Made by a program: the position numbers and the translations under genes | NCBI GenBank assembly: GCA_016791475.1 | Contig: JAEUWI010000010.1 | Coordinates: forward strand, 20,352 to 84,351 | Length of the DNA: 64,000 bases | Direction of reading: 5' to 3' | Origin: Candidatus Hydrogenedentota bacterium | GTDB lineage: Bacteria; Hydrogenedentota; Hydrogenedentia; Hydrogenedentales; JAEUWI01 | In this document: positions 11,013-22,751 of the stretch, piece after piece | How the letters are laid out: the number at the start of each line of letters is the position of its first letter | Position numbering within the stretch: position 1 is the stretch's first letter | Notes under the pieces: generated by a model | What the model was told of the DNA's origin: nothing | Seen by the model: the letters and a program-made list of their open reading frames with translations, nothing else | Database searches by the model: none

Positions 11013-12296
11013 ATGGCACCGCAACGTACACGAAGTGATGTCCCCACTTGCTCCTTCTGTGGCAAACGCCATGACGAGGTCAACAAGCTCATCGCAGGAC
11101 CCGATGTAAACATCTGCGACGAGTGCGTGAACCTCTGTGGCGAGATTGTCGCCGAAGAGCGGGCGCGCAAAGGGACTTCGCGCAGCATGAAAGTGCCGGC
11201 GCCAAAGGAAATCAAGTCCTTCCTCGACCAGTATGTCATCGGCCAGGACCACGCGAAGCGCGTGCTCTCCGTAGCCGTGCACAACCACTATAAACGCATC
11301 TCTTCCGGCGGCGAAATAGACGGTGTAGAGATCCAGAAATCGAACGTCCTGCTCATCGGCCCTTCCGGTTGCGGCAAGACCCTCCTCGCAGAGTCCCTCG
11401 CGCGTCTCCTTGATGTGCCTTTTGCCGTCGTGGACGCCACGACCCTCACCGAAGCGGGCTACGTGGGCGACGACGTCGAGAATGTCATCCTCAAGCTGCT
11501 CCAGGCGGCCGATTTCGATGCGGCGCGGGCCGAGACCGGTATCGTTTACATCGACGAAATAGACAAGGTGGCGCGCAAGGGGGACAGCCCCTCCATCACC
11601 CGCGATGTGTCCGGGGAAGGCGTGCAGCAGGCCCTCCTGAAGCTTCTGGAAGGCACCGTGGCCAACGTGCCGCCTCAGGGTGGACGCAAGCATCCCCAGC
11701 AGGAGTGCATCCAGGTTCATACGAAAAACATTCTTTTCCTCTGTGGCGGCGCCTTTAACGGTCTCGAAACGATCATCCAGAAGCGCATCGGCCAGAAAGT
11801 CATCGGTTTCAATGCCGAGGTCCGCTCCAAGAAGGAGTTGGGCCTGGGGGCCCTGTTGGCCCAGGTGAAGCCGGAAGATCTCATCAAGTACGGCATGATC
11901 CCCGAGTTCAGCGGGCGCCTGCCCATCACGGCCTCCCTCAACGAGCTGACCCGTGAGGATTTGGTGCGCATTCTGACAGAGCCCAACAATGCCCTGGTCC
12001 GCCAGTACCAGAAGCTCTTCGAAATGGAGAATGTGGCCCTCCGCTTTCCGGACGAGACCATCGACACCATCGCCGCCTCCGCCATCAAGCGGGACACGGG
12101 CGCGCGCGGGCTGCGCAGCATCCTCGAAGAGGCCATGCTCAACGTTATGTTCGAGCTTCCCTCCCGGGAAGACGTGCGCGAGTGTGTGATAACGCCCGGC
12201 GTCATCACCAAGGCCGAAGAGCCTCTCCTGGTGTATAAGCACGAGAAGCCCGTCGTAAAGGATAAAGACACCGATACCAATTCCGCGTCGGCCTGA
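11013..12296 (+). CDS. clpX: ATP-dependent Clp protease ATP-binding subunit ClpX
   Basis: N-terminal C4 zinc finger CSFCGK...CDEC, Walker A GPSGCGKT, 427 aa. Confidence 0.92.
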
Positions 12297-12497: not shown

Positions 12498-14837
12498 ATG
12501 CCACCCCGTAAACAAACCGCCCGACACGAGACCATGCGATTGCCCCTCCTGCCCCTGAAGGATGTGGTCATCTTCCCGCGCATGGTCGTGCCCCTCCTGG
12601 TGGGCCGTCCCGCCTCGCTGGCGGCCGTGGAAGGCAGCCTTTCGAGAAATCAGCCCCTCTTTCTTTGCACCCAGCAAGACCCGAGCGAGGAGAATCCCCG
12701 CGCGGAAAGTCTGTATTCCATCGGCGTTGCCGCCACGGTCCTCCAGTCCCTGCGCATGCCCGACGGGACGATGAAAGTGGTCGTTGAGGGCCTGGGGCGC
12801 GGCAAGGTAAGTACCTTCTACTTTTGTAAAGACGAAGCCGCCGAGGTGGACGTTCATAGCTTCGAATCCCGTAGTGAGCGCTCCGACAAAGTCGACGCCC
12901 TCGTGCGTACCGTCGTGGGCCAGTTCGAAGACTACGTCCAGCTCTCCCAGCGCATCGCCCCGGAAGTCTTCATGTCGATCCAGGGCATGGACGACCCCGA
13001 GCTCACCGCCGACACCATTTGCGCCTATCTCCCCGTGCGGGTAGAGGAGCGCCAGGGCCTCCTCGAACTCGTCGATCTGGAGGCGCGCCTCGAAAAAATG
13101 ACGTCACTCCTCATGCGGGAGAATGAAATGATCCGCATGGAGCACAGCGTCCGCGAGCGCGTCCGCGACCAGATGGAGCGCGGCCAGCGCGAGCACTACC
13201 TCCACGAGCAGCTCAAGCTCATCCATCAGGAGCTGGGCAATCGCGAAGACGGCGGCGACGACTTCACCGAGATTCGCGGCATGATCGCCAAGGCGAAAAT
13301 GCCCAAGGACGTGAAGGCGAAGGCCGAACGCGAGTTCGCACGCTACGAGCGCATGCCCATGATGAGTCCCGAAGGCGCCGTGATCCGAAGCTACCTCGAA
13401 TGGCTCTGCGACATGCCCTGGGCGAAGCGATCCCGCGATTCGCTGAACCTCGCGCGCGCCCAGGAGGTGCTCGACGAAGATCACTACGGCCTGGAGAAGG
13501 TGAAAGACCTTATCCTCGAATACCTCGCCGTGCGCAAACTCAGCAACTCCACCAAAGGCCCAATCCTCTGCCTCGTGGGGCCTCCCGGCGTGGGTAAGAC
13601 CTCCCTCGGCGCATCCATCGCCCGCGCCATGAAGCGCAAATTTGTCCGCGCTTCCCTGGGCGGCATTCGCGACGAGGCCGAAATCCGGGGCCACCGCCGC
13701 ACCTACATCGGCGCCATGCCCGGCCGCATTATCCAGAGCGTCAAGAAGGCCGGCGTGAAGAACCCGCTGTTCCTGCTGGACGAGATTGACAAGCTCAACA
13801 CGGATTTTCGCGGCGACCCCGCGTCCGCCCTTCTCGAGGTCCTCGATCCCGTGCAGAACAAGGACTTCAGCGACCACTATCTGGAGGTGAGCTTTGACCT
13901 GTCCGAGGTATTTTTTATTGCCACGGCCAACAGCGAGTTCGATATTCCCCACGCCCTCCACGACCGCATGGAAATCGTGAACCTCTCGGGCTACACCCTC
14001 CGGGAAAAGGAGGAGATCGCGCGACTTTTTCTCGTCCCGCGGATGATGACCGACTGCGGACTGAACCCGAAAAAGGTGCGTTTCGACGAGAGCGGCATCA
14101 CCACCGTAATCCAGCGTTACACCCGCGAGGCCGGCGTACGCGAACTGGAGCGGCAGATCGCCCGCGCCCTCCGCAAAGTCGCACGCCGCGTGGTGGACAA
14201 GTCCGCCAAGGGTGATTTTCTGCTCAACGCGGAGACGGTGATGGAGTTGCTTGGCCCGCCCGTCTACAGCGGTCTGCGCGCCGTGGAAGAGCCCGCGGCG
14301 GGCATTGCCATCGGCATGGCCTGGACCCAGGTGGGGGGCGACATCCTTTACATCGAAACCAGCACCATGGAAGGCAAGGGCAAACTGACCCTTACCGGTC
14401 AACTGGGCAGTGTAATGAAGGAATCCGCCGAAGCGGCCTACACCTACATCCGCGCCCACGCCAAGGCCCTGAAAGTGCCCGCCGACTTCTACAAGAAACT
14501 GGACCTCCACGTGCATGTGGCCGAAGGCGCCGTGCCCAAAGACGGCCCCTCCGCCGGTACCGCCCTCATCGTGTCCATGGTTTCCGCCCTCACCGGGCAG
14601 AAGCCCAAAGCGGCCCTATCCATGACGGGTGAGATCACGCTGCTCGGCCGTGTGCTGCCCGTGGGCGGCATCAAGGAGAAAGTGCTCGCCGCGCATCGTT
14701 CGGGTGTTCGTACGATTATCCTGCCCCGCGAAAACGAGAAGGATCTTCCCGATGTGCCCAAAGAGGTGCGGGACGAGATCAAGTTTGTCATGGTGGAGTC
14801 GGTGGACGAAGTGATCGCCACGGTGTTTGGAGACTGA
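12498..14837 (+). CDS. lon: Lon protease
   Basis: 779 aa; Lon N domain, Walker A GPPGVGKTS, catalytic DGPSAGTAL...K dyad. Confidence 0.92.
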   Translation: MPPRKQTARHETMRLPLLPLKDVVIFPRMVVPLLVGRPASLAAVEGSLSRNQPLFLCTQQDPSEENPRAESLYSIGVAATVLQSLRMPDGTMKVVVEGLGRGKVSTFYFCKDEAAEVDVHSFESRSERSDKVDALVRTVVGQFEDYVQLSQRIAPEVFMSIQGMDDPELTADTICAYLPVRVEERQGLLELVDLEARLEKMTSLLMRENEMIRMEHSVRERVRDQMERGQREHYLHEQLKLIHQELGNREDGGDDFTEIRGMIAKAKMPKDVKAKAEREFARYERMPMMSPEGAVIRSYLEWLCDMPWAKRSRDSLNLARAQEVLDEDHYGLEKVKDLILEYLAVRKLSNSTKGPILCLVGPPGVGKTSLGASIARAMKRKFVRASLGGIRDEAEIRGHRRTYIGAMPGRIIQSVKKAGVKNPLFLLDEIDKLNTDFRGDPASALLEVLDPVQNKDFSDHYLEVSFDLSEVFFIATANSEFDIPHALHDRMEIVNLSGYTLREKEEIARLFLVPRMMTDCGLNPKKVRFDESGITTVIQRYTREAGVRELERQIARALRKVARRVVDKSAKGDFLLNAETVMELLGPPVYSGLRAVEEPAAGIAIGMAWTQVGGDILYIETSTMEGKGKLTLTGQLGSVMKESAEAAYTYIRAHAKALKVPADFYKKLDLHVHVAEGAVPKDGPSAGTALIVSMVSALTGQKPKAALSMTGEITLLGRVLPVGGIKEKVLAAHRSGVRTIILPRENEKDLPDVPKEVRDEIKFVMVESVDEVIATVFGD

Positions 14838-15198: not shown

Positions 15199-15816
15199 GT
15201 GCAGGTAAATTCATCACGATTCGTGCTCAGCGCTCTCGACCCCGCCCACTACCCCAAAGACCGTCTTCCCGAGATCGCTTTCGTGGGACGTTCCAACGTC
15301 GGTAAGTCGAGCCTGCTCAATACCCTGCTCAACCGCAAGGGCCTGGCCAAGACCAGCGGTACCCCCGGCAAGACCCAGACCCTGAACTTCTTCAACATCA
15401 ACGAAAAGTTCTACTTCGTCGATCTGCCCGGCTATGGCTTCGCCAAAGTACCCAAGTCCATGAAGGATACCTGGAACAAAGTCATGGTGGAGTATCTCCA
15501 GACCCGCTCCAATCTCCGCATGGTGATTTCCCTCGTGGACGCGCGCCATGAGCCGAGCCCCCTGGACATCCAGATGCTCAACATCCTTGACGAGGCTTCG
15601 GTGCCCACCCTGGTCGTGGCCACCAAAGTGGACAAGCTCAAGCGCTCCCAGCGCAACAAGTCCCTGAACCTCATCCGGGAAACCCTGGGCCTGCCGGAGG
15701 ACTACCACGTGCTCCCTTTCAGTTCCGTAGATCGCGAAGGGGTAAAGGATCTCTGGGAGGTCATCGAAGATCAGCTTCAGACCCCGGAACGCGTCATCGA
15801 AAATGAAGAGGCGTAG
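15199..15816 (+). CDS. engB: ribosome biogenesis GTP-binding protein EngB/YihA/YsxC
   Basis: GRSNVGKSSLLN G1 motif, DLPGYG G3; follows lon as in B. subtilis lonA-ysxC. Confidence 0.88.
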   Translation: MQVNSSRFVLSALDPAHYPKDRLPEIAFVGRSNVGKSSLLNTLLNRKGLAKTSGTPGKTQTLNFFNINEKFYFVDLPGYGFAKVPKSMKDTWNKVMVEYLQTRSNLRMVISLVDARHEPSPLDIQMLNILDEASVPTLVVATKVDKLKRSQRNKSLNLIRETLGLPEDYHVLPFSSVDREGVKDLWEVIEDQLQTPERVIENEEA

Positions 15817-15896: not shown

Positions 15897-16568
15897 TCAC
15901 GCCACGACCCCGGGCATCGGCGCCAGACGCGACAATTCCTCCCGCTTCTTCCGGGCGATCAACTCCTCTTCATAGGCCAGCGTCGTCAACAGATAGCTGA
16001 AAGGAATGGTCGCCAGCAGGCCTATCCCGAAGCACAGGGCTCCCGCCATGTTCACCGCGATGATGACCAGGCCCAGCACAACCCAACGCTTGAAATTGGC
16101 CCAAACCAGGAGGCGGCTCTTTTCCATCGCCCCCCAGAAGCCGAGATTCTCGTCCAGGATAAAGAGATAGGTCACGGAATAGGTCATAAAGATGAGCAGC
16201 GGTGGAATAACCAGGGGAACTACGATCAGCGCCATGAGATTGATCAGAATATTGGCGAGGAAGGCGGGCAGAAAGTGCTCGAATCCCGAAAGGATGTCCG
16301 CCAGTTCCGTATTTTCGTTGCGCACGATCCGCTGGGATATCTTGAAGGCGCCAAGGATGAAGGGCCCGAGGAGGACGTTGCCGCTGATCGTCAGCAGGTA
16401 GTTGCCGGCAATCATGATCAACAGCAGAATGATGTGGGCACTCACCAACAGCAGGGCGTGGTCCCAGAGCAGCCCGAAGGCCCGGCGGACCAGTGGGCGG
16501 ATGCACAGATCGCTCATGCCGCAATGCTCGACCTCATTCGCGTGTTGGGAAGGCGCTTCGATGCGCAT
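15897..16568 (-). CDS. hypothetical polytopic membrane protein (DUF975/DUF4013-like)
   Basis: ORF track 15897..16724; start chosen at internal ATG (MRIEAPS...) with GGAAAGG RBS; multiple TM helices. Confidence 0.5.
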   Translation of the reverse strand: MRIEAPSQHANEVEHCGMSDLCIRPLVRRAFGLLWDHALLLVSAHIILLLIMIAGNYLLTISGNVLLGPFILGAFKISQRIVRNENTELADILSGFEHFLPAFLANILINLMALIVVPLVIPPLLIFMTYSVTYLFILDENLGFWGAMEKSRLLVWANFKRWVVLGLVIIAVNMAGALCFGIGLLATIPFSYLLTTLAYEEELIARKKREELSRLAPMPGVVA

Positions 16569-16717
16569 ACGTTGACCTTTCCAGCGTGCGCACATCGCAC
16601 GACACCCCATTATACCGCGCCTGTGCCCGGTCGCGCCTCCCCAGGGGGAGGGTTGGTCAAAAAGTGATTGATCGGGGCAAACCATGCTACCGTAAGCGGC
16701 AACGCAGGAGTATACAC

Positions 16718-17137
16718 ATGGCACGAGGGGATCACATCAAGGTGCGTCGTTACGGCGGGCTTTACAGCCACCACGGAATCGACATGGGCGACGGCACCGT
16801 CATCCATTTCTCCGGCGAACCCTGTCGGCGGGGCGACGCCCGGGTCTGCCGTGCGGATCTTGAATCCTTCCTGGCGGGCGGGCGGCTCACGGTGGTGCGC
16901 CATCGCGGGCCGGTGCGCCCCCCGGATGACGTGGCCGCCGCCGCCGAAGACGGCCTCCATCGGCAGGACTATTCCCTCCTGCACAATAATTGCGAACACT
17001 TCGCCACCTGGTGCAAGACGGGCCGCCGACACAGCGGGCAGGTGCGCCGCGCACTGCGGCTCGCAGGGGCCACCGCCGGCGCCTCGCTTGCGCTCCTGTG
17101 GCCCGTGCTCGCCGCGCGCAGGGCGACCTCGCGATAA
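16718..17137 (+). CDS. LRAT/H-rev107-type NlpC/P60 papain-like protein (139 aa)
   Basis: GDHIKVRRYGGLYSHHGIDMGDGTVIHF (His box) and NNCEHFATWC (catalytic Cys in NCEHF); GCAGGAG RBS; hydrophobic C-terminus. Confidence 0.7.
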   Translation: MARGDHIKVRRYGGLYSHHGIDMGDGTVIHFSGEPCRRGDARVCRADLESFLAGGRLTVVRHRGPVRPPDDVAAAAEDGLHRQDYSLLHNNCEHFATWCKTGRRHSGQVRRALRLAGATAGASLALLWPVLAARRATSR

Positions 17138-17191
17138 TTTCCTGGACGCGCCCACGCCACTGGACACCGACCGACTGACCCAAGGGAGATA

Positions 17192-17614
17192 TTGAACTCT
17201 ATGATCGAACTACTGAACACCGACGAGCAACGCGTGATGCTGGAACTGCTCCTTCACATTGCAAAGTCGGACGGCACCGTGAAGGATGTCGAACAGGAGA
17301 TTCTGGAGAACTATGCCACCCTGGTCGACCTTGATTTCTCCACCATCAACAGCAACCTCACGCCCGCCGAGCTCATCCCCCAGATTCCGAGCCCCGTCAG
17401 CCGGGCCATCGTCCTTCAGGAATTGCTTCGCATGTCCCATCTGGACGGCATCATCAGCCAGGGCGAGCACGCCGCCATCCTCGCCATCGCCGGCCAGATG
17501 GGCTTCCCCGATTCGGTCGTGCACCGCCTTGATGCCTGGGTGGTGGAGGGACTTCGCTGGGTATGGGAGGGCGAAGACATTCTCGACGAAATAGAGGCTG
17601 AATTCGGGGCGTAG
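17192..17614 (+). CDS. TerB-like (tellurite-resistance/DjlA N-terminal-like) domain protein
   Basis: 140 aa all-helical; LLLHIAKSDGTVKDVEQEILENYA...IVLQELLRMSHLDGIISQGEHAAILAIAGQMG pattern typical of TerB-like domains; assignment by recollection. Confidence 0.5.
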   Translation: MNSMIELLNTDEQRVMLELLLHIAKSDGTVKDVEQEILENYATLVDLDFSTINSNLTPAELIPQIPSPVSRAIVLQELLRMSHLDGIISQGEHAAILAIAGQMGFPDSVVHRLDAWVVEGLRWVWEGEDILDEIEAEFGA

Positions 17615-17961: not shown

Positions 17962-19443
17962 GTGATGAATAAAATTAAATTTACCAAATCAACCCTCGGC
18001 CTCGCCGGCGCCGCCGTGGCCACCGCCGGTCTGTTTTCACTCTACGATGCCCCCGTGGCCCTGGGAAACGATGCGACCCCCGGTATCGCCGCGCTGCAAA
18101 ACCTCAGCGACACCTACGTGCAGGTCGCGGAGCAAACCTCCAATGGCGTCGTGTTCATCGAGATCAGCAAGACGATGGCGTCGCCCGCCGCGTTCGGCGA
18201 GGGCTTCGACGGCCCTGGCAGTCCCTTCCGCCACTTCTTCGGCCCCGGCGGTATCCCTGGATTTCGCCAGGGGCCCCAGGGCGACCAAATGCCCATGCCC
18301 GTGGGCACCGGATCGGGTTTCATAATTACCTCGGATGGTTACATCGTCACGAACAATCACGTGGCTGCGGAAGCGGATGGACTGAAAGTCACCCTGCAGG
18401 ACGGTCGTGTCTTTGACGCCACCGTCGTGGGCACCGATCCCCAGACTGAAGTGGCCCTTCTGAAAGTGGACGCCACCGGTCTTCCGACCGTTACCCTCGG
18501 CGACTCCGACAAGGTGCGCGTGGGCGAGTGGGTGCTGGCCGTGGGCAGCCCCTTCGGCCTCGACCACACCGTGACCTCTGGTATCGTCAGCGCCCAGGGC
18601 CGGAGTGAAGTCGGCATCGTGGACTATGCGAACTTTATCCAGACGGACGCCGCCATCAACCCCGGCAACTCCGGCGGCCCGCTGATTAACCTTCATGGCG
18701 AAGTCATCGGCATGAACACCGCCATCCTCAGCAGCAGCGGCGGCAGCAACGGTATCGGATTTGCCATTCCGGTGAATATGGTCAAGAGCGTCGTGGACGA
18801 TCTGAAAGACGACGGCAAGGTCCAGCGCGGTTACCTGGGCGTGCACATTCAGAATATCTCGCCCGAAATGTCCAAGTGGTTTGATATCGAAGCGGGCCAG
18901 GGCGCCCTCGTAGCCGAAGTCGCCGAGGGGTCACCCGCGGAACAGGCCGGCCTGCAGAAGGACGACGTCGTCGTCAGTATCGACGGCCAGGTCGTGAAGG
19001 ATGCCGGTGCGCTTCGCAGCCGCGTGGCCACCTCCGCCCCGAACAAGGAACTGAAACTGGAAGTTCTTCGAAATGGCGAACGGATGGAGAAGAGCGTGAC
19101 GCTCGGACAACTGGATTCTGATGGCGTGGCCAGCAGCGGAAATGCCCCGGCGGGCAGCCCGTCCCGCCTTGGCATACAACTCCAGAACCTGGACGAGAAC
19201 ATTGCGAACCAACTGGGCTTCACCGGTGACGGCGGTGTGGTGATTTCCGCCGTCGAGCCGGGTTCTCAGGCCGCCCGCGAAGGCCTCGCCCGAGGCATGG
19301 TCATCACGGAGGTAAATCGAATCCCCGTAAAAAACGTCCAAGAGTTCAAGGAAGCCCTGGAGAAGGGAAAGAAGGACGGATCGGTACTGCTCAACATCCA
19401 GCAGGAAGGCCATTCCCGCTACGTTGCGATGAAGCTCTCGTAA
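17962..19443 (+). CDS. htrA: Do-family periplasmic serine endopeptidase (HtrA/DegP/DegQ) with two PDZ domains
   Basis: catalytic triad regions TNNHV, D, GNSGGPL; two PDZ segments; signal peptide. Confidence 0.9.
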   Translation: MMNKIKFTKSTLGLAGAAVATAGLFSLYDAPVALGNDATPGIAALQNLSDTYVQVAEQTSNGVVFIEISKTMASPAAFGEGFDGPGSPFRHFFGPGGIPGFRQGPQGDQMPMPVGTGSGFIITSDGYIVTNNHVAAEADGLKVTLQDGRVFDATVVGTDPQTEVALLKVDATGLPTVTLGDSDKVRVGEWVLAVGSPFGLDHTVTSGIVSAQGRSEVGIVDYANFIQTDAAINPGNSGGPLINLHGEVIGMNTAILSSSGGSNGIGFAIPVNMVKSVVDDLKDDGKVQRGYLGVHIQNISPEMSKWFDIEAGQGALVAEVAEGSPAEQAGLQKDDVVVSIDGQVVKDAGALRSRVATSAPNKELKLEVLRNGERMEKSVTLGQLDSDGVASSGNAPAGSPSRLGIQLQNLDENIANQLGFTGDGGVVISAVEPGSQAAREGLARGMVITEVNRIPVKNVQEFKEALEKGKKDGSVLLNIQQEGHSRYVAMKLS

Positions 19444-19585: not shown

Positions 19586-20491
19586 GTGGGCTCCAGGTTG
19601 GAATTGGCTATACTTAATTTGCACAAAAAGTTAGCGCAACCCAACGAGGAACCCACAATGCTTGTAGAGAAGATGTTAGTAGCTGCCATGGCCGAATACA
19701 AGAAATTTTTGCTCGAATATTGCTCGGGTGCCGCGGAGCTGGAATTGTCACCGGCTTCGTCCGCTTTGATTGTATCGGGGCTTCACCAGGCTGCCAATGC
19801 GGCTTCAAAGGCGGCACTCCGCCTTTTCCTCGAGGCCAAGGACGAGACCGACGATCTGATTCGGGTCGGCCAGGATTCGTACCGTTTCAAGTTTTTGAGC
19901 GAGCGCGAGGCGCTGTCTCCCTGGGGTAAGATGCGGTTCGCGCGCAGGCTTTATCAGAATGCCAAGGACCAGTCCCACGTCCCATTGGATTCGGCTTGGG
20001 GCATGTCTGGCGAATTCATGATGGCTGAAGTACGCGAGGCGGTGGCTTTTGCCAGCGCCCACGTCACGCCCCAGGAGGTGGCCGAGCTGATGGAGAAGAG
20101 TGCTCAGTTCCACCCGCACCGCACCCAGATCCTGGAGGCGTTGGAGCGTATTGACGCACGGGTGTCGGATATGCGCGATTCCGTCGACGAACGCATACGC
20201 GAACAAGAGTCGGCGCCTGAGAATGTGCGCGTGCTCGTGGCCAGCATGGACGGCGCGAACGTGTTGCTCAACGAGCCTGGCAAAAAGCGAGGTCGCCCCG
20301 CAGAGCGCCCCAAAGGCGGTTCGGAGGAAGAGTCCAAGACCTCGTACAAGAACGCCATGGCCGGCTGCGTAATCCGACGCAAAGCGGCCACCGATTCCGA
20401 GCGAAAGCGGCCACTCGTTCCGACGCAAAGCGGCCATCCATTCCGAGCGAAGGCGGCCAGCGATTCCGACGGAAGGCGGCCACTTTTCTAA
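19586..20491 (+). CDS. hypothetical protein interrupted by IS21-family insertion (native part 19586..20374; reading frame resumes at 22822..22977)
   Basis: coding-like composition; last ~35 codons translate the IS terminal repeats; removing 20375..22821 restores an in-frame ORF ending at 22977. Confidence 0.55.
   Translation: MGSRLELAILNLHKKLAQPNEEPTMLVEKMLVAAMAEYKKFLLEYCSGAAELELSPASSALIVSGLHQAANAASKAALRLFLEAKDETDDLIRVGQDSYRFKFLSEREALSPWGKMRFARRLYQNAKDQSHVPLDSAWGMSGEFMMAEVREAVAFASAHVTPQEVAELMEKSAQFHPHRTQILEALERIDARVSDMRDSVDERIREQESAPENVRVLVASMDGANVLLNEPGKKRGRPAERPKGGSEEESKTSYKNAMAGCVIRRKAATDSERKRPLVPTQSGHPFRAKAASDSDGRRPLF
20375..20487. repeat. IS21 left-end multi-repeat (5 tandem ~22-23 nt units, AAAGCGGCCAC-N5-TTCCGA[GC]CG)
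   Basis: seen directly; inverted copies at 22775..22814. Confidence 0.7.
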
Positions 20492-20572
20492 GGGGGAGCG
20501 CAGGCGGCGCGGGATAACGTTGATCGGGCACAATCGTGCTCCTTTTCGGCTTTTTAGAGCGAGGAGGTTGCG

Positions 20573-22099
20573 ATGCCCGCGGAGCGGATATCCATGCGCA
20601 AGATTCGAGAAGTGTTGCGGTTGAGTTTGGGCGGGCGGCTGAGCGCCCGCGCGGTAGCGGTTAGTTGCGGGATGGGCCGGACGGCCGTGCTGGAGTATGT
20701 GCGGCGGGCGGCCCGCGCCGGGCTGTCGTGGCCGCTGCCGGAGGGGTTGGCGGACGATACGCTGGAGGCCTTGCTGTTTCCGCCCGCCGCACCGGCCGAG
20801 GGCGACCGCCCGCTGCCGGTGTGGCAGGAGGTGTATGACTCGCTCACGGGCAAGGGGGTGAGGCTGTACCTGTTGTGGGAGGGGTACCGGGCGCTGCATC
20901 CGGCGGGCTACGGGTACAGCCGCTTCTGCGAACTATACCGGGACTGGGCGGGCAAGCTGCCGGTGTGGATGCGGCAGGAGCACAAGGCGGGGGAAAAGCT
21001 GTTCGTGGATTATGCGGGCATGACGATGCCGGTCACGGACCGCGAGACGGGCGAGGTCCGTCAGGCCCAGATCTTCGTGGCGGCGCTGGAGGTCAGCGGC
21101 TACACTTTCGCGGAGGCGACCTGGACCCAGACCCTGCCCGACTTCATCGCCTCCCACGTCCGCGCCCTTGAATTCTTCGGCGGCTGCCCGGCGCTGGTGG
21201 TGCCGGACAACCTGCGCAGCGCCGTGTCGCGCCCGTACCGCTACGGCCCCGAGATCACCCCGGTCTACACGGAACTGGCGGTCCACTACGGCGTGGCGAT
21301 CCTGCCTGCGCTGGTGCGCAAGCCTCGGGACAAGGCCAAGGCGGAGTCGAGCGTCCTAGGCGTGGAGCGACGCGTCCTGGCCGCGCTGCGGGAGCGGACC
21401 TTCATCAGCCTGGCGGAACTCAACGCGGCTATCGCCCCGTTACTGTTGGTGTATAACATCCGCGCGTTCCAGCAGCGGGAGGATTCGCGCCGGAGCCAGT
21501 TCGAGGCCTTCGACGCGCCCGCGCTAGAGCCCCTTCCCCGGACCCGCCACGAGTACGCGGAGTGGCTCAAGGCCCGCGTCAGCCTCGACTACCACATCCG
21601 CGCCGACGGCCACTGTTACAGTGTGCCGTACTGGCTCGTGAAGGGGGAGGTTCAGGTGCGTATGACCGCCACCCATGTGGAGATATTCCTCAACAATACC
21701 AGGGTCGCCAGCCACCTCCGCTCCCACCAGAAGGATCGCCACAGCACATGCCGCGAGCACATGCCCAAGGGCCACCAGGCCCACGCCGAATGGCCCCCCG
21801 AACGCATCAAACACTGGGTCGGGCAGGCTGGCCCCGCCACCGCCGAGGTGGCCCAGGCCATCATGGACGCGCGCCCCCATCCCGAGCAGGGATTCCGCGC
21901 CAGCATGGGCCTCAAGCGCCTGGGCGACACACTGGGCGCGGAGCCCCTCGAAGCCGCGTGCGCCCGCGCCCCGGCCCTGCAATCACCGTCCTACCAGAGC
22001 GTCAAGCCCATCCCTGCGAAGGGACTCGACCGCGAGCCCCCGCCCCAACTCGAGCCACCCATGCCGCTCATCGAGCACGAGGCGGCTTATTACCAATAA
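20573..22099 (+). CDS. istA: IS21-family transposase IstA
   Basis: N-terminal HTH (MRKIREVLRLSLGGRLSARAVA...), DDE catalytic region DYAGMTMPV...EATWTQTLPDF...VVPDNLRSAV; 508 aa. Confidence 0.88.
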   Translation: MPAERISMRKIREVLRLSLGGRLSARAVAVSCGMGRTAVLEYVRRAARAGLSWPLPEGLADDTLEALLFPPAAPAEGDRPLPVWQEVYDSLTGKGVRLYLLWEGYRALHPAGYGYSRFCELYRDWAGKLPVWMRQEHKAGEKLFVDYAGMTMPVTDRETGEVRQAQIFVAALEVSGYTFAEATWTQTLPDFIASHVRALEFFGGCPALVVPDNLRSAVSRPYRYGPEITPVYTELAVHYGVAILPALVRKPRDKAKAESSVLGVERRVLAALRERTFISLAELNAAIAPLLLVYNIRAFQQREDSRRSQFEAFDAPALEPLPRTRHEYAEWLKARVSLDYHIRADGHCYSVPYWLVKGEVQVRMTATHVEIFLNNTRVASHLRSHQKDRHSTCREHMPKGHQAHAEWPPERIKHWVGQAGPATAEVAQAIMDARPHPEQGFRASMGLKRLGDTLGAEPLEAACARAPALQSPSYQSVKPIPAKGLDREPPPQLEPPMPLIEHEAAYYQ

Positions 22100-22136
22100 C
22101 ACAACACCCATGCACCAAGAAAGGAAACACACACCC

Positions 22137-22751
22137 ATGCTCCTTCACCCGACCCTGGACAAGCTCGCCGCCAAACTGCGCCAGAGCGCAACCATCGAGG
22201 ACATCGACCTGCGCACGCCGCGCGGCATCGACAAAGTCGCCCTGCTCGCCCTCGCCGGCTGCGCTTGGCTGCGCAAGCATCACAACCTCATCATTACCGG
22301 GCCCACCGGAACCGGCAAAAGCTACATCGCCTGCGCTCTGGGAGACCGCGCCTGCCGCGAGGGCTACCGCGTCCTCTACTACCGCGCCCCCCGGGCTCTT
22401 CCAGGAGCTCGCCATAGCCCGGGGCGACGGCTGCTACGACCGCCTCCTGCGCGCCCTCGCCCGCACCGACCTCCTCATTCTCGACGACTGGGGCACCGCC
22501 CCCTGACCGACGAACAGCGAAAAGACCTCTTCGAAGTCGTCGAAGACCCCTACGACCGCAAGAGTACCCTCATCGCAGCACAACTACCCACCCAGCACTG
22601 GCACCAGCTCATCGGAGACCCAACACTCGCCGACTCCCTGCTTGACAGACTCATCCACAACGCCTACGCCATCACTCTAAAGGGGGAGTCCATGCGAAAG
22701 AAAAGAGCCCAAAACTTGATTCCCGAAGCGCCATCGGGTACGAACTCATAG
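22137..22751 (+). pseudogene. istB: IS21-family helper ATPase IstB disrupted by two compensating frameshifts in homopolymer runs
   Basis: Walker A ITGPTGTGKSYIA in frame A to ~22385; LFQELAIARGDGCYDRLLRALARTDLLILDDWGTAP in frame B to 22506; LTDEQRKDLFEVVEDPYDRKSTLIAAQ back in frame A; extra G in CCCCCGGG run, missing C in C6 run. Confidence 0.7.

What the first reader, a model, noticed from the sequence alone, without database searches (positions are those of the whole stretch)
16718..17614. LRAT-type NlpC/P60 papain-like enzyme paired with a TerB-like protein
The 139-aa protein has the complete H-box and NCEHF catalytic signature of LRAT/H-rev107 acyltransferase-phospholipases plus a hydrophobic C-terminal anchor. 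A TerB-like stress/conflict-associated domain protein follows 55 nt downstream. Both lie opposite a divergently oriented membrane protein. The pairing is not a described system and could be a membrane-targeting effector with its regulator.
Basis: partly seen in the sequence, partly recalled or inferred. Interest (0 to 1): 0.55.

Follow-up and report, generated by a model that had tools for sequence, protein, structure and literature searches.

The report
Membrane-anchored PLAAT-like enzyme with TerB-like partner
Two adjacent genes encode a bacterial relative of the human PLAAT/LRAT membrane-lipid enzymes and a small acidic TerB-like protein, and the same pair recurs in unrelated genomic settings, so it is probably a real but untested two-gene module acting on the cell membrane.

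Summary
Window 16718-17137(+) encodes a 139-aa LRAT/PLAAT-type enzyme: Pfam LRAT E=5e-24, invariant His18/His30/Cys92 with NCEHF, an AlphaFold model that best matches human PLAAT2/3/4, and a C-terminal hydrophobic helix with a basic end. Window 17201-17614(+) encodes a 137-aa acidic, soluble TerB-domain protein that scores above Pfam's TerB cut-off and folds most like PDB 2ou3.

The refutation test fails, because the pair does recur. It is found across Candidatus Hydrogenedentota at a core chromosomal locus (clpX-lon-engB … LRAT-TerB … murC-ftsQ). TerB-like proteins only about 30% identical also sit 3-36 nt downstream of LRAT genes of a different, long multi-helix form, in unrelated contexts. 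Seven of ten TerB-like lineages that could be examined are paired, always in the order LRAT then TerB. Both genes are under purifying selection. The divergent membrane protein is not a conserved part of the module.

My best reading is a cytoplasm-facing, membrane-anchored phospholipid acyl-hydrolase/transferase gated by a TerB-like partner that senses cations or membrane state. In this genome it looks like an inherited envelope-stress module rather than a mobile defence island, but a defence or toxin role is not excluded. I found no publication describing the pair. Function is inferred, not shown.

The parts
16706..16710 (+). Shine-Dalgarno-like AGGAG, 7 nt upstream of the LRAT start codon
   Evidence: Read directly from the sequence.
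16718..17137 (+). LRAT/PLAAT-type permuted NlpC/P60 enzyme, 139 aa, net charge about +9
   Evidence: Pfam LRAT E=5e-24. 1606 homologues, mostly 137-150 aa. AF2 pLDDT 85.9, with best PDB matches human HRASLS2/PLAAT4/PLAAT3 at E about 1e-7 and TM(target) 0.73-0.83. A profile search hits the same PDB chains at E=1e-11. dN/dS is 0.13-0.18.
16769..16807 (+). H-box: His18 (16769-16771) and His30 (16805-16807), 12 residues apart as His23/His35 in human PLAAT3
   Evidence: Both are invariant columns in alignment A1. The Cys-His-His triad is described for LRAT/PLAAT in PMC10318531 and PMC10102619. The PLAAT3 residue numbering is from my own knowledge.
16988..17002 (+). NCEHF motif, with the predicted nucleophile Cys92 at 16991-16993
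   Evidence: Sequence read. Columns N91, C92, E93 and H94 are invariant and F95 is nearly invariant, at least 90%. The motif aligns to NCEHF of HRASLS2/PLAAT3.
17060..17134 (+). C-terminal hydrophobic helix (residues 115-133, LAGATAGASLALLWPVLAA) followed by the basic end RRATSR; predicted membrane anchor
   Evidence: Hydropathy mean is 1.63 over 19 residues, and the same feature occurs in all 26 homologues. AF2 predicts one long helix over residues 107-138. Human PLAATs have the same layout (PMC10102619). Membrane insertion and topology are inferred.
17138..17200 (+). 63-nt spacer with AAGGGAGA (17182-17189) 11 nt before the TerB-like ATG; no terminator-like site on the + strand
   Evidence: Sequence read and terminator scan. 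In other paired loci the spacer is 0-94 nt, and the two genes overlap in L099.
17201..17614 (+). TerB-domain protein, 137 aa, soluble, very acidic (25 D/E against 7 K/R), member of a dedicated stand-alone subfamily
   Evidence: Pfam TerB 32 bits, above the cut-off of 24.4. AF2 pLDDT 88.6, all-helical. The best fold match is 2ou3, 'tellurite resistance protein of COG3793' (Foldseek probability 1.0, E=0.012); the profile hit to 2ou3 has E=3.8e-4. 664 cluster representatives at E<1e-3, mostly 130-140 aa. dN/dS is 0.04-0.06.
17270..17293 (+). First TerB acidic motif, D24-G25 … E31
   Evidence: D24, G25 and E31 are invariant in A2. In the divergent set A3, D24 is invariant and E31 nearly so.
17444..17467 (+). 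Second TerB acidic motif, D82-G83 … E89
   Evidence: D82, G83 and E89 are invariant in A2. In A3, E89 is invariant and D82 nearly so.
17510..17605 (+). Subfamily-specific C-terminal amphipathic Trp-rich helix (residues 104-135; W113 V114 G117 W120 G124 E125)
   Evidence: AF2 helix over residues 104-135. W113 and G124 are invariant, and V114, G117 and W120 nearly invariant, even among relatives about 30% identical. The hydrophobic moment reaches 0.51 at residues 106-123.
15897..16568 (-). Divergent multi-pass membrane protein (weak DUF975/UPF0259/BPSS1780-like); genomic context only, not a conserved part of the module
   Evidence: Matches are below cut-off. It is called as a 218-243 aa gene in L081-L084. 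It occurs only in one synteny group and is absent from L004, L008, L014, L098 and all long-form pairs. The start near 16568 is inferred from the lengths of homologues.

Best explanation
I read this as a two-gene operon.

Gene 1 encodes an enzyme built like eukaryotic PLAAT/HRASLS proteins. It has a cytoplasmic permuted NlpC/P60 (LRAT) domain with a Cys92-His18-His30 triad, which would form a thioester acyl-enzyme. A C-terminal hydrophobic helix would hold it on the cytoplasmic membrane. It most likely removes or transfers acyl chains of inner-leaflet glycerophospholipids (phospholipase A1/2, or N- or O-acyltransferase).

Gene 2 encodes a soluble, strongly acidic TerB-domain protein of a dedicated subfamily. 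It has two acidic DG…E motifs and a conserved Trp-rich amphipathic C-terminal helix. I propose that it binds the basic enzyme or its membrane-proximal helix and gates its activity in response to divalent cations or membrane perturbation.

In this genome (Candidatus Hydrogenedentota) the module is vertically inherited at a core locus. It probably serves envelope or membrane-stress lipid remodelling rather than acting as a mobile defence cassette.

Shown here: domain identities, intact catalytic residues, a predicted hydrophobic C-terminal helix of anchor type (membrane insertion itself untested), recurrent adjacency in fixed order, and purifying selection. Inferred: the substrate, the topology, physical interaction between the two proteins, and the direction of regulation.
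For: Identity of the enzyme:
- Pfam LRAT and an invariant H-box/NCEHF.
- Fold and profile matches to human PLAAT2/3/4.
- A hydrophobic tail with a basic end in every homologue, as in PLAATs.

Identity of the partner:
- TerB by Pfam, fold and profile.
- All 33 divergent subfamily members hit Pfam TerB.

Linkage between the two genes:
- Partners lie directly downstream in 6 of the best 80 LRAT loci from species genomes.
- Partners lie directly downstream in all close metagenomic relatives examined.
- At least 23 of the 52 close TerB hits share their longest-contig length with an LRAT hit.
- Distant TerB-like lineages (27-33% identical to the window protein where computed: P0177, P0178, P0184) also follow an LRAT gene, at gaps of 3-37 nt or overlapping it: P0177, P0178, P0184, P0186, P0188 and P0195. 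Five of these LRATs are long-form and the flanks differ.
- This makes 7 of 10 determinable lineages paired, always LRAT then TerB on the same strand.
- Paired LRATs fall in two far-apart clades of the LRAT tree.
- Pairwise identities of the two proteins correlate at r=0.82.

Both genes are constrained: dN/dS is 0.13-0.18 for LRAT and 0.04-0.06 for TerB.

Core-locus inheritance: the order is clpX-lon-engB-(DUF975)-LRAT-TerB-…-murC-ftsQ-ftsZ.

Membrane-stress theme:
- Cyanobacterial relatives fuse the same LRAT domain to a PspA/IM30 segment. That fusion was already noted and predicted to modify membrane lipids (PMC11237479).
- Vertebrate PLAATs are recruited by membrane damage through their C-terminal hydrophobic domain (PMC10102619).

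The charges are complementary: LRAT is about +9 and TerB about -18.
Against: - No biochemical or genetic data exist for any bacterial LRAT or for this TerB subfamily. The substrate could be something other than a phospholipid.
- Most LRAT relatives (74 of 80 genome loci and 37 of 37 viral contigs) have no TerB-like neighbour, so the enzyme does not generally need this partner.
- Three TerB-like lineages are not next to an LRAT gene.
- The correlation of identities is also what any two co-inherited genes would show.
- Within Hydrogenedentota the adjacency could be plain synteny.
- Metal binding by TerB domains and their envelope-stress links (DjlA, YebE) come from my own knowledge. The key paper (PMC4104200) could not be read.
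- Topology is uncertain because basic residues flank both ends of the hydrophobic helix.
- Some distant pairs sit beside GmrSD-type or prophage-lysis-type genes, which fits a conflict role better.
Confidence: 0.5

Rival explanations
1. The pair is an anti-phage or abortive-infection module, or a toxin-antitoxin-like one. The LRAT enzyme is a membrane-destroying phospholipase effector. The TerB-like protein is its sensor or neutraliser and releases it on infection or damage.
For: - TerB-like proteins occur in a validated defence system, Shango (PMC10250203).
- The window TerB has a weak partial match to the PADLOC candidate PDC-S48 (E=9.5e-6).
- One distant pair lies next to a 919-aa GmrSD_N protein. 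Another lies beside Amidase_3/SLT and many small genes, which looks like a prophage. A third lies next to an HTH_3 regulator.
- An unpaired LRAT-family gene on a Moraxella plasmid abuts a viperin-family gene.
- The order enzyme-then-small-partner resembles toxin-immunity pairs.
- LRAT is the fastest-evolving gene of the locus.
Against: - In the window and its relatives the pair sits in a stable housekeeping locus over large divergence (ClpX 78-94% identical, LRAT 54-66%).
- There is no PADLOC hit for LRAT and no complete system.
- The TerB partner is highly conserved (dN/dS 0.04-0.06), unlike arms-race immunity proteins.
- No secretion or trafficking domain is present.
- None of the 37 viral-contig LRAT genes carries the partner.
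- The nearby IS21 element is an insertion downstream of htrA, not a flank of the pair.
Confidence: 0.22
2. The enzyme is not a phospholipid enzyme. It is a thiol peptidase/amidase or protein/lipoprotein (de)acylase acting on an envelope or cell-division substrate, with the TerB-like protein as adaptor.
For: - The NlpC/P60 superfamily is mostly peptidases and amidases, and its relatives include lipid amidases and deubiquitinases (PMC10318531).
- In Hydrogenedentota the locus lies between protein-quality-control genes (clpX, lon, htrA) and murC-ftsQ-ftsZ.
- TerB domains occur in the co-chaperone DjlA (weak NCBIfam match).
Against: - Sequence and fold are specifically closest to the lipid-acting LRAT/PLAAT branch. 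Cell-wall NlpC/P60 structures only match at E>0.1.
- The enzyme has no signal peptide, so the peptidoglycan layer is out of reach if the domain is cytoplasmic.
- The flanking genes differ in the distant paired loci.
Confidence: 0.13
3. There is no functional link. The two genes are simply neighbours kept together by synteny and have independent roles.
For: - Within Hydrogenedentota the whole region is syntenic.
- A close relative (L007) keeps LRAT at the same locus without the TerB gene.
- Most LRAT genes lack the partner.
Against: - The pairing recurs with TerB proteins only about 30% identical, with a different LRAT architecture, in unrelated flanks and at GC contents from 49% to 72%.
- Order and strand are fixed, and spacers are 0-94 nt, sometimes overlapping.
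Seven of ten lineages having one as the upstream neighbour is far beyond chance.
Confidence: 0.08

Closest known systems
Vertebrate PLAAT/HRASLS1-5 and LRAT (Pfam PF04970; PDB 4dpz, 7zom, 7zot, 4fa0)
   Same: - Circularly permuted NlpC/P60 fold.
- H-box and NCEHF with a Cys-His-His triad.
- A conserved S-x-Q-V stretch after the motif.
- A catalytic domain of about 110 residues followed by a single C-terminal hydrophobic helix and a basic end.
   Different: - Only 25-29% identical.
- Bacterial, with unknown substrate.
- Encoded with a dedicated TerB-like partner gene, which PLAATs lack.
- No activity data.
Cyanobacterial LRAT(NlpC/P60)-PspA_IM30 fusion proteins (noted in PMC11237479)
   Same: They carry the same LRAT-domain family, 41-52% identical among the best 80 loci. 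The enzyme is combined with a helical module tied to membrane stress, and they are predicted to alter membrane lipids.
   Different: The second module there is fused and is PspA-like. Here it is a separate gene and TerB-like, and the window enzyme has a hydrophobic tail instead.
TerB-domain proteins: TerB of the ter operon (2jxu), COG3793 protein 2ou3, DjlA middle domain, YebE/DUF533
   Same: A helical domain with two acidic DG…E motifs. It scores above the Pfam TerB cut-off, its fold is closest to 2ou3, and it has weaker DUF533 and DjlA matches.
   Different: - No ter operon genes are nearby.
- It is a stand-alone protein of 130-140 aa with an extra conserved Trp-rich C-terminal helix.
- Its similarity to canonical TerB 2jxu is insignificant (E=0.73).
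- Its characteristic neighbour is an LRAT gene.
Shango anti-phage system (TerB-like SngA plus ATPase plus helicase)
   Same: It contains a TerB-like protein as a presumed sensing or membrane-associated component of a multi-gene module (PMC10250203).
   Different: There is no helicase or ATPase here. The PADLOC search gave no Shango match, only a partial PDC-S48 domain hit. The partner here is a lipid-type enzyme.
Long-form bacterial LRAT proteins with a doubled Gly/Ala-rich membrane module (actinobacterial and other lineages)
   Same: The same catalytic domain. A subset (L087, L096, L099, L101, L142) carries the same TerB-like partner directly downstream.
   Different: They are 280-290 aa, with two repeats of a GLSGxGIxSGLA-type hydrophobic module separated by an acidic/basic loop, instead of one tail helix. 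The actinobacterial members seen in the genome loci lack the partner.

Membership tests
LRAT/PLAAT family (Pfam PF04970, permuted NlpC/P60) | Sequence match to the family model above the curated cut-off | tested here: met
   85.3 bits against a cut-off of 24.3, E=5e-24, covering profile positions 4-119 of 120.
LRAT/PLAAT family (Pfam PF04970, permuted NlpC/P60) | Cys-His-His triad: H-box His on strand 2, His on strand 3, and Cys in NCEHF after them (permuted order) | tested here: met
   H18, H30 and C92 are invariant in 26 homologues and align to the corresponding residues of HRASLS2/PLAAT3. The triad is defined in PMC10318531 and PMC10102619.
LRAT/PLAAT family (Pfam PF04970, permuted NlpC/P60) | Three-dimensional fold of PLAAT catalytic domains | tested here: met
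   AF2 model with pLDDT 85.9. The top 9 PDB matches are all PLAAT/HRASLS/LRAT-chimera entries; the six crystal structures of PLAAT catalytic domains among them have E=2e-7 to 4e-6, TM(target) 0.73-0.83 and rmsd 2.2-2.8 Å. This is a prediction, not a solved structure.
LRAT/PLAAT family (Pfam PF04970, permuted NlpC/P60) | C-terminal hydrophobic membrane-anchoring helix (PLAAT1-4, LRAT) | tested here: met
   Residues 115-133 have hydropathy 1.63, followed by RRATSR. The feature is present in all 26 homologues and lies in the AF2 helix 107-138. Actual membrane insertion was not tested.
LRAT/PLAAT family (Pfam PF04970, permuted NlpC/P60) | Phospholipase A1/2 or acyltransferase activity through a thioester intermediate | not testable with these tools
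   This needs enzyme assays or lipidomics.
TerB domain family (Pfam PF05099) | Sequence match above the curated cut-off | tested here: met
   32.0 bits against a cut-off of 24.4, in two stretches. All 33 divergent subfamily members match TerB at E≤0.01.
TerB domain family (Pfam PF05099) | Two helical repeats, each with a conserved acidic D-G-x(5)-E motif (proposed metal ligands; my own knowledge) | tested here: met
   D24-G25…E31 and D82-G83…E89 are invariant in A2 and invariant or nearly so in A3. Metal binding itself is untested.
TerB domain family (Pfam PF05099) | Fold similar to solved TerB-like structures | tested here: inconclusive
Tellurite-resistance ter operon (terZABCDE) | TerB encoded together with TerA/C/D/E/Z-type genes | tested here: not met
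   The neighbours are engB, a DUF975-like gene, LRAT, htrA and IS21. No ter genes occur in any of the related loci.
Known anti-phage defence systems (PADLOC-DB 2.0; Shango) | Component proteins match the system models and the full gene set is present | tested here: not met
   LRAT has no hit. TerB has only a partial domain match to the single-gene candidate PDC-S48 (E=9.5e-6, profile positions 273-331 of 411). No helicase or ATPase is adjacent.
Toxin-immunity / polymorphic toxin pairs | Toxin domain joined to secretion or trafficking modules, with a fast-evolving, variable downstream immunity gene | tested here: not met
   The enzyme has only an LRAT domain plus a tail. The downstream gene is more conserved than the enzyme among close relatives (94% against 70% identity; dN/dS 0.04 against 0.18).
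LRAT-PspA_IM30 fusion proteins | PspA/IM30 segment fused C-terminally to the LRAT domain | tested here: not met
   The window protein has no PspA match. The cyanobacterial relative L023 does, at 34.7 bits against a cut-off of 33.9.

The most novel reading that the evidence does not exclude
LRAT plus TerB-like is an ancient, horizontally spread bacterial two-component 'membrane-damage switch'. The TerB-like protein senses cation influx or inner-leaflet perturbation through its acidic motifs and Trp-rich helix. It then releases or activates a tail-anchored PLAAT-type phospholipase/acyltransferase. The enzyme either repairs or remodels the membrane (core-locus copies) or destroys it as an abortive-infection effector (copies beside GmrSD or prophage genes). 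This would be a prokaryotic counterpart, and possibly a forerunner, of the damage-triggered action of PLAAT on membranes in vertebrates.
Probability: 0.25. Interest if true: 0.72.

Novelty: new variant of a known kind. Interest (0 to 1): 0.5.

Why it matters
To my knowledge, bacterial LRAT/PLAAT homologues are widespread but experimentally uncharacterised. This analysis found 1606 proteins in one search, 572 confirmed loci (a lower bound) in a collection of 185,579 species genomes, and further copies on plasmids and viral contigs. The work shows three things:
- A sizeable branch shares the full vertebrate PLAAT layout of catalytic domain plus C-terminal hydrophobic helix.
- It has a dedicated partner gene from a distinct TerB-like subfamily.
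- The LRAT domain is repeatedly combined with modules linked to membrane stress: a TerB-like protein in trans, PspA fused, and Gly-zipper-like membrane repeats.

If the partner gates a phospholipase or acyltransferase, this would give a first handle on the function of a stand-alone TerB-domain family. It would also give a tractable bacterial model for how PLAAT-type enzymes are kept harmless until needed. And it might reveal a new membrane-targeting effector type for stress or phage defence.

Tried and rejected
- **Third protein search with the divergent TerB alignment:** returned only 5 proteins. It still helped, because it unlocked context look-ups.
- **Fusions of LRAT and TerB in one protein:** none among the best 150 TerB-like representatives (the longer ones are TerB tandems or unrelated multidomain proteins), and none in the long LRAT forms.
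- **An early assumption corrected:** I first took the gene downstream in L004, L008 and L014 to be HtrA. Pfam shows it is MurC followed by FtsQ.
- **Divergent DUF975-like membrane protein as a third component:** rejected, because it occurs in only one synteny group.
- **Small genes upstream of plasmid LRAT genes (Moraxella, Acinetobacter):** they are not TerB-like.
- **Promoter/terminator, Rfam and tRNA scans of the locus:** nothing informative.
- **Literature:** the Ter-system paper of Anantharaman et al. 2012 (PMC4104200) is not held. I could not check whether it lists an LRAT neighbourhood for TerB.
Full report
**1. What is there**

The window carries two same-strand ORFs at the stated place.

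*ORF 1 (16718-17137, 139 aa).* It is preceded by AGGAG. It matches Pfam LRAT (PF04970) at E=5e-24, far above the curated cut-off. A search of 5.8 billion proteins gave 1606 homologues, and those listed are nearly all 137-150 aa. In an alignment of 26 of them, His18, His19, His30 and N91-C92-E93-H94 of the NCEHF motif are invariant (F95 in at least 90%), as is a later S106-x-Q108-V109. The His18-His30 spacing of 12 and the position of the Cys after the His residues give the permuted Cys-His-His arrangement described for LRAT/PLAAT enzymes (PMC10318531; PMC10102619).

An AlphaFold2 model (pLDDT 85.9) has human HRASLS2, PLAAT4 and PLAAT3 as its best PDB matches, at E about 1e-7, TM(target) 0.73-0.83 and rmsd 2.2-2.8 Å. 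Cell-wall NlpC/P60 hydrolases appear only at E>0.1. A profile search of PDB sequences finds the same chains at E=1e-11.

Every homologue ends in a 19-residue hydrophobic stretch followed by 2-6 Lys/Arg. This is the layout of PLAAT1-4, whose C-terminal hydrophobic domain targets them to membranes (PMC10102619). There is no N-terminal signal sequence. I therefore infer, but have not shown, a cytoplasmic catalytic domain held on the inner membrane.

*ORF 2 (137 aa).* The best start is ATG 17201, preceded by AAGGGAGA, because all homologues start MI(E/D)(L/R)L. It ends at 17614. It scores 32 bits on Pfam TerB against a cut-off of 24.4, with weaker DUF533 and DjlA matches. It has two D-G-x5-E motifs (D24/E31 and D82/E89), no hydrophobic segment, and 25 acidic against 7 basic residues. 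The model is all-helical (pLDDT 88.6). It is closest to 2ou3, a COG3793 'tellurite resistance protein', and to 2h5n. The family profile hits 2ou3 at E=3.8e-4 but canonical TerB 2jxu only at E=0.73. It is therefore a TerB-domain protein, not a TerB of a ter operon. No ter genes are nearby.

**2. Genomic setting**

The window comes from a Candidatus Hydrogenedentota-like genome. The nearest genome locus is L001, with EngB 95% identical.

The local order is:
- clpX (11013-12296)
- lon (12498-14837)
- engB (15199-15816)
- a divergent DUF975/UPF0259-like membrane gene
- LRAT
- the TerB-like gene
- htrA (17962-19443)
- an ORF with no Pfam match
- an IS21-family element

Related contigs keep clpX-lon-engB upstream and murC-ftsQ-ftsZ downstream, with a variable stretch in between. 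So in this phylum the pair sits in a core, vertically inherited locus.

The DUF975-like gene is present only in one synteny group. It is absent from other paired loci, so it is not part of the module.

**3. Is the pairing more than synteny?**

Starting from LRAT, only 6 of the best 80 loci from species genomes have the TerB-like gene downstream, and all six share parts of the same synteny. On its own this would be weak evidence.

Starting from the TerB-like protein, the picture changes. An exhaustive profile search found 664 cluster representatives. Most are stand-alone proteins of 130-140 aa that share a subfamily-specific C-terminal W-V-x2-G-x2-W-x3-G helix, and all 33 tested hit Pfam TerB.

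I looked up the contexts of ten lineages beyond the window's own close family:
- **P0177:** 16 nt downstream of a 289-aa LRAT gene, next to an HTH_3 regulator and a Gly-zipper peptide gene.
- **P0178:** 13 nt after a 279-aa LRAT, beside a GmrSD_N protein.
- **P0184:** 34 nt after a short LRAT in a Hydrogenedentota genome, but with different flanks (GH172, IMP cyclohydrolase).
- **P0186:** 36 nt after a 280-aa LRAT, beside Amidase_3, SLT and many small genes.
- **P0188:** overlaps the end of a long LRAT on a contig of 72% GC.
- **P0195:** 3 nt after a 282-aa LRAT.
- **P0179, P0181 and P0197:** not next to an LRAT gene.
- **P0205:** lies at a contig end and is undetermined.

Counting the window's own clade, 7 of 10 determinable lineages are paired. 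The order is always LRAT then TerB on one strand, with 0-94 nt between them.

In a neighbour-joining tree of LRAT domains the paired genes fall in two distant clades. One is the short-form, mainly Hydrogenedentota clade, with unpaired members interspersed. The other is a long-form clade in which all four sampled members are paired.

Pairwise identities of the two proteins correlate at r=0.82 over 66 comparisons, as expected for co-inheritance. Chance adjacency can therefore be dismissed, and I regard the pair as a genuine module.

Both genes are under purifying selection. Against L001 and L085, dN/dS is 0.13-0.18 for LRAT and 0.04-0.06 for TerB, compared with 0.03 for engB. LRAT is the fastest-evolving gene of the locus.

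**4. Wider family picture**

The same LRAT domain occurs in several other forms:
- With a doubled Gly/Ala-rich hydrophobic module in actinobacterial and other lineages.
- Fused to a PspA/IM30 segment in cyanobacteria. This fusion has already been noted and predicted to change membrane lipid composition (PMC11237479).
- On plasmids, once beside a viperin-family gene.
- On 37 IMG/VR viral contigs, including giant-virus bins. None of these has the TerB-like partner.

The common denominator is a membrane-directed C-terminal or partner module. Two of these modules, PspA and TerB-like, belong to families associated with membrane or envelope stress. For TerB that association is from my own knowledge: the DjlA middle domain, Cpx-regulated YebE/DUF533, and the proposed metal-binding acidic motifs.

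**5. How it most likely works**

Shown:
- An intact PLAAT-type catalytic apparatus.
- A hydrophobic tail.
- A soluble acidic TerB-like partner.
- Tight operon-like linkage that recurs across lineages.
- Selective constraint on both genes.

Inferred: the enzyme forms an acyl-Cys92 intermediate from inner-leaflet phospholipids and hydrolyses it or transfers the acyl chain. Because such an activity is dangerous, the co-translated partner binds the basic enzyme, or competes for the membrane surface with its Trp-rich amphipathic helix. It then gates the enzyme according to divalent-cation level or membrane state. Vertebrate PLAAT1 and PLAAT3 are themselves recruited by membrane damage through their hydrophobic tail (PMC10102619), which makes a damage-responsive logic plausible.

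For the window, the core-locus inheritance, the absence of defence-system matches and the conserved partner favour a stress or remodelling role (confidence about 0.5).

The main rival is an abortive-infection or toxin-neutraliser module (about 0.2). It is supported by the presence of a TerB-like protein in the Shango system (PMC10250203) and by the defence-like or prophage-like neighbours of some long-form pairs. A non-lipid substrate (about 0.13) and mere synteny (about 0.08) are less likely.

**6. Comparison with the known, and novelty**

Both domains are known families and the window proteins pass their sequence-level membership tests. Enzymatic activity could not be tested, and similarity to canonical TerB is inconclusive.

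The locus is not a ter operon, not Shango, not a PADLOC system, and not a classical toxin-immunity pair.

Full-text searches for TerB with LRAT, NlpC or 'lecithin retinol acyltransferase' found nothing relevant. The one paper most likely to mention such a neighbourhood (Anantharaman et al. 2012) could not be read.

I therefore rate it a new variant of known kinds: a previously undescribed, recurrent LRAT/PLAAT plus TerB-like gene pair.

Interest is moderate (0.5). The components are familiar and the function is unproven. But the pair is clean, testable, and links two poorly understood bacterial families to membrane biology.

Noticed in passing
window 19586-22751: An IS21-family element lies downstream of htrA. 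The IstA-like ORF is at 20573-22099 (Mu-transposase C-terminal domain) and the IstB ATPase lies within 21675-22751. The preceding 301-aa ORF (19586-20491) has no Pfam match and may be truncated or part of the element.
   Followed up: partly
L023 5001-5690, L037 5001-5690 and about 40 other cyanobacterial loci among L023-L080: Cyanobacterial LRAT relatives of about 225-240 aa carry a C-terminal coiled-coil segment. In L023, the one such protein scanned against Pfam, it scores just above the PspA_IM30 cut-off (34.7 against 33.9 bits). This matches the NlpC/P60-PspA fusion noted in PMC11237479.
   Followed up: partly
L010, L011, L015, L020, L021, L029, L064; L087 1373-2242; L096 3149-3988; L099 1-564: Long-form LRAT proteins carry two repeats of a Gly/Ala-rich hydrophobic module (…GLSGxGIMSGLA…) separated by a conserved DDxxLxxxERxARRxGR loop, ending in YKxWKW. 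Pfam does not recognise this part.
   Followed up: partly
L139 (Moraxella osloensis plasmid AP031476.1) 2613-4673; L141 (Acinetobacter plasmid NZ_CP032284.1) 2668-3666: Plasmid LRAT-family genes with Thr/Ala/Gly-rich hydrophobic tails are preceded at 20-25 nt by a small homologous gene of 102-119 aa that is not TerB-like. In Moraxella the pair is followed by a viperin-family radical SAM gene, which is a defence-island-like setting.
   Followed up: partly
L084 5175-5920: In this otherwise syntenic contig the LRAT gene is split over two reading frames: profile positions 1-57 in one frame and 58-139 in another. Only 72 aa were called. This is either a frameshifted pseudogene or an assembly error.
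   Followed up: no
L007 4863-7031: A related genome keeps lon-engB-LRAT … murC but has no TerB-like gene. Instead, a 528-aa minus-strand ORF with no Pfam match fills the gap.
   Followed up: partly
L092 2592-5110 (also L091, L093, L094; alphaproteobacterial MAG): An unpaired member of the TerB-like subfamily (P0197) is followed by two tandem DUF6782 'putative metallopeptidase' genes. This could be an alternative enzyme partner for the same TerB-like subfamily.
   Followed up: partly
L102-L138 (IMG/VR contigs): 37 viral contigs, including two giant-virus bins (GVMAG; L119, L136), encode LRAT-domain proteins of 129-412 aa. None has the TerB-like neighbour.
   Followed up: partly
L008 (CAZMVU010000010.1, labelled uncultured Nitrospirales): This contig shares the LRAT-TerB-murC-ftsQ order with Hydrogenedentota loci L004 and L014. 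That suggests either a mis-binned contig or transfer of a larger block.
   Followed up: no
window 16718-17137 compared with L001 and L085: LRAT is the fastest-evolving gene of the locus. It is 71-78% identical where engB is 95-96% and the TerB-like gene 87-95%. At larger distances the TerB-like protein diverges more than LRAT (30-40% against 50-56%).
   Followed up: partly
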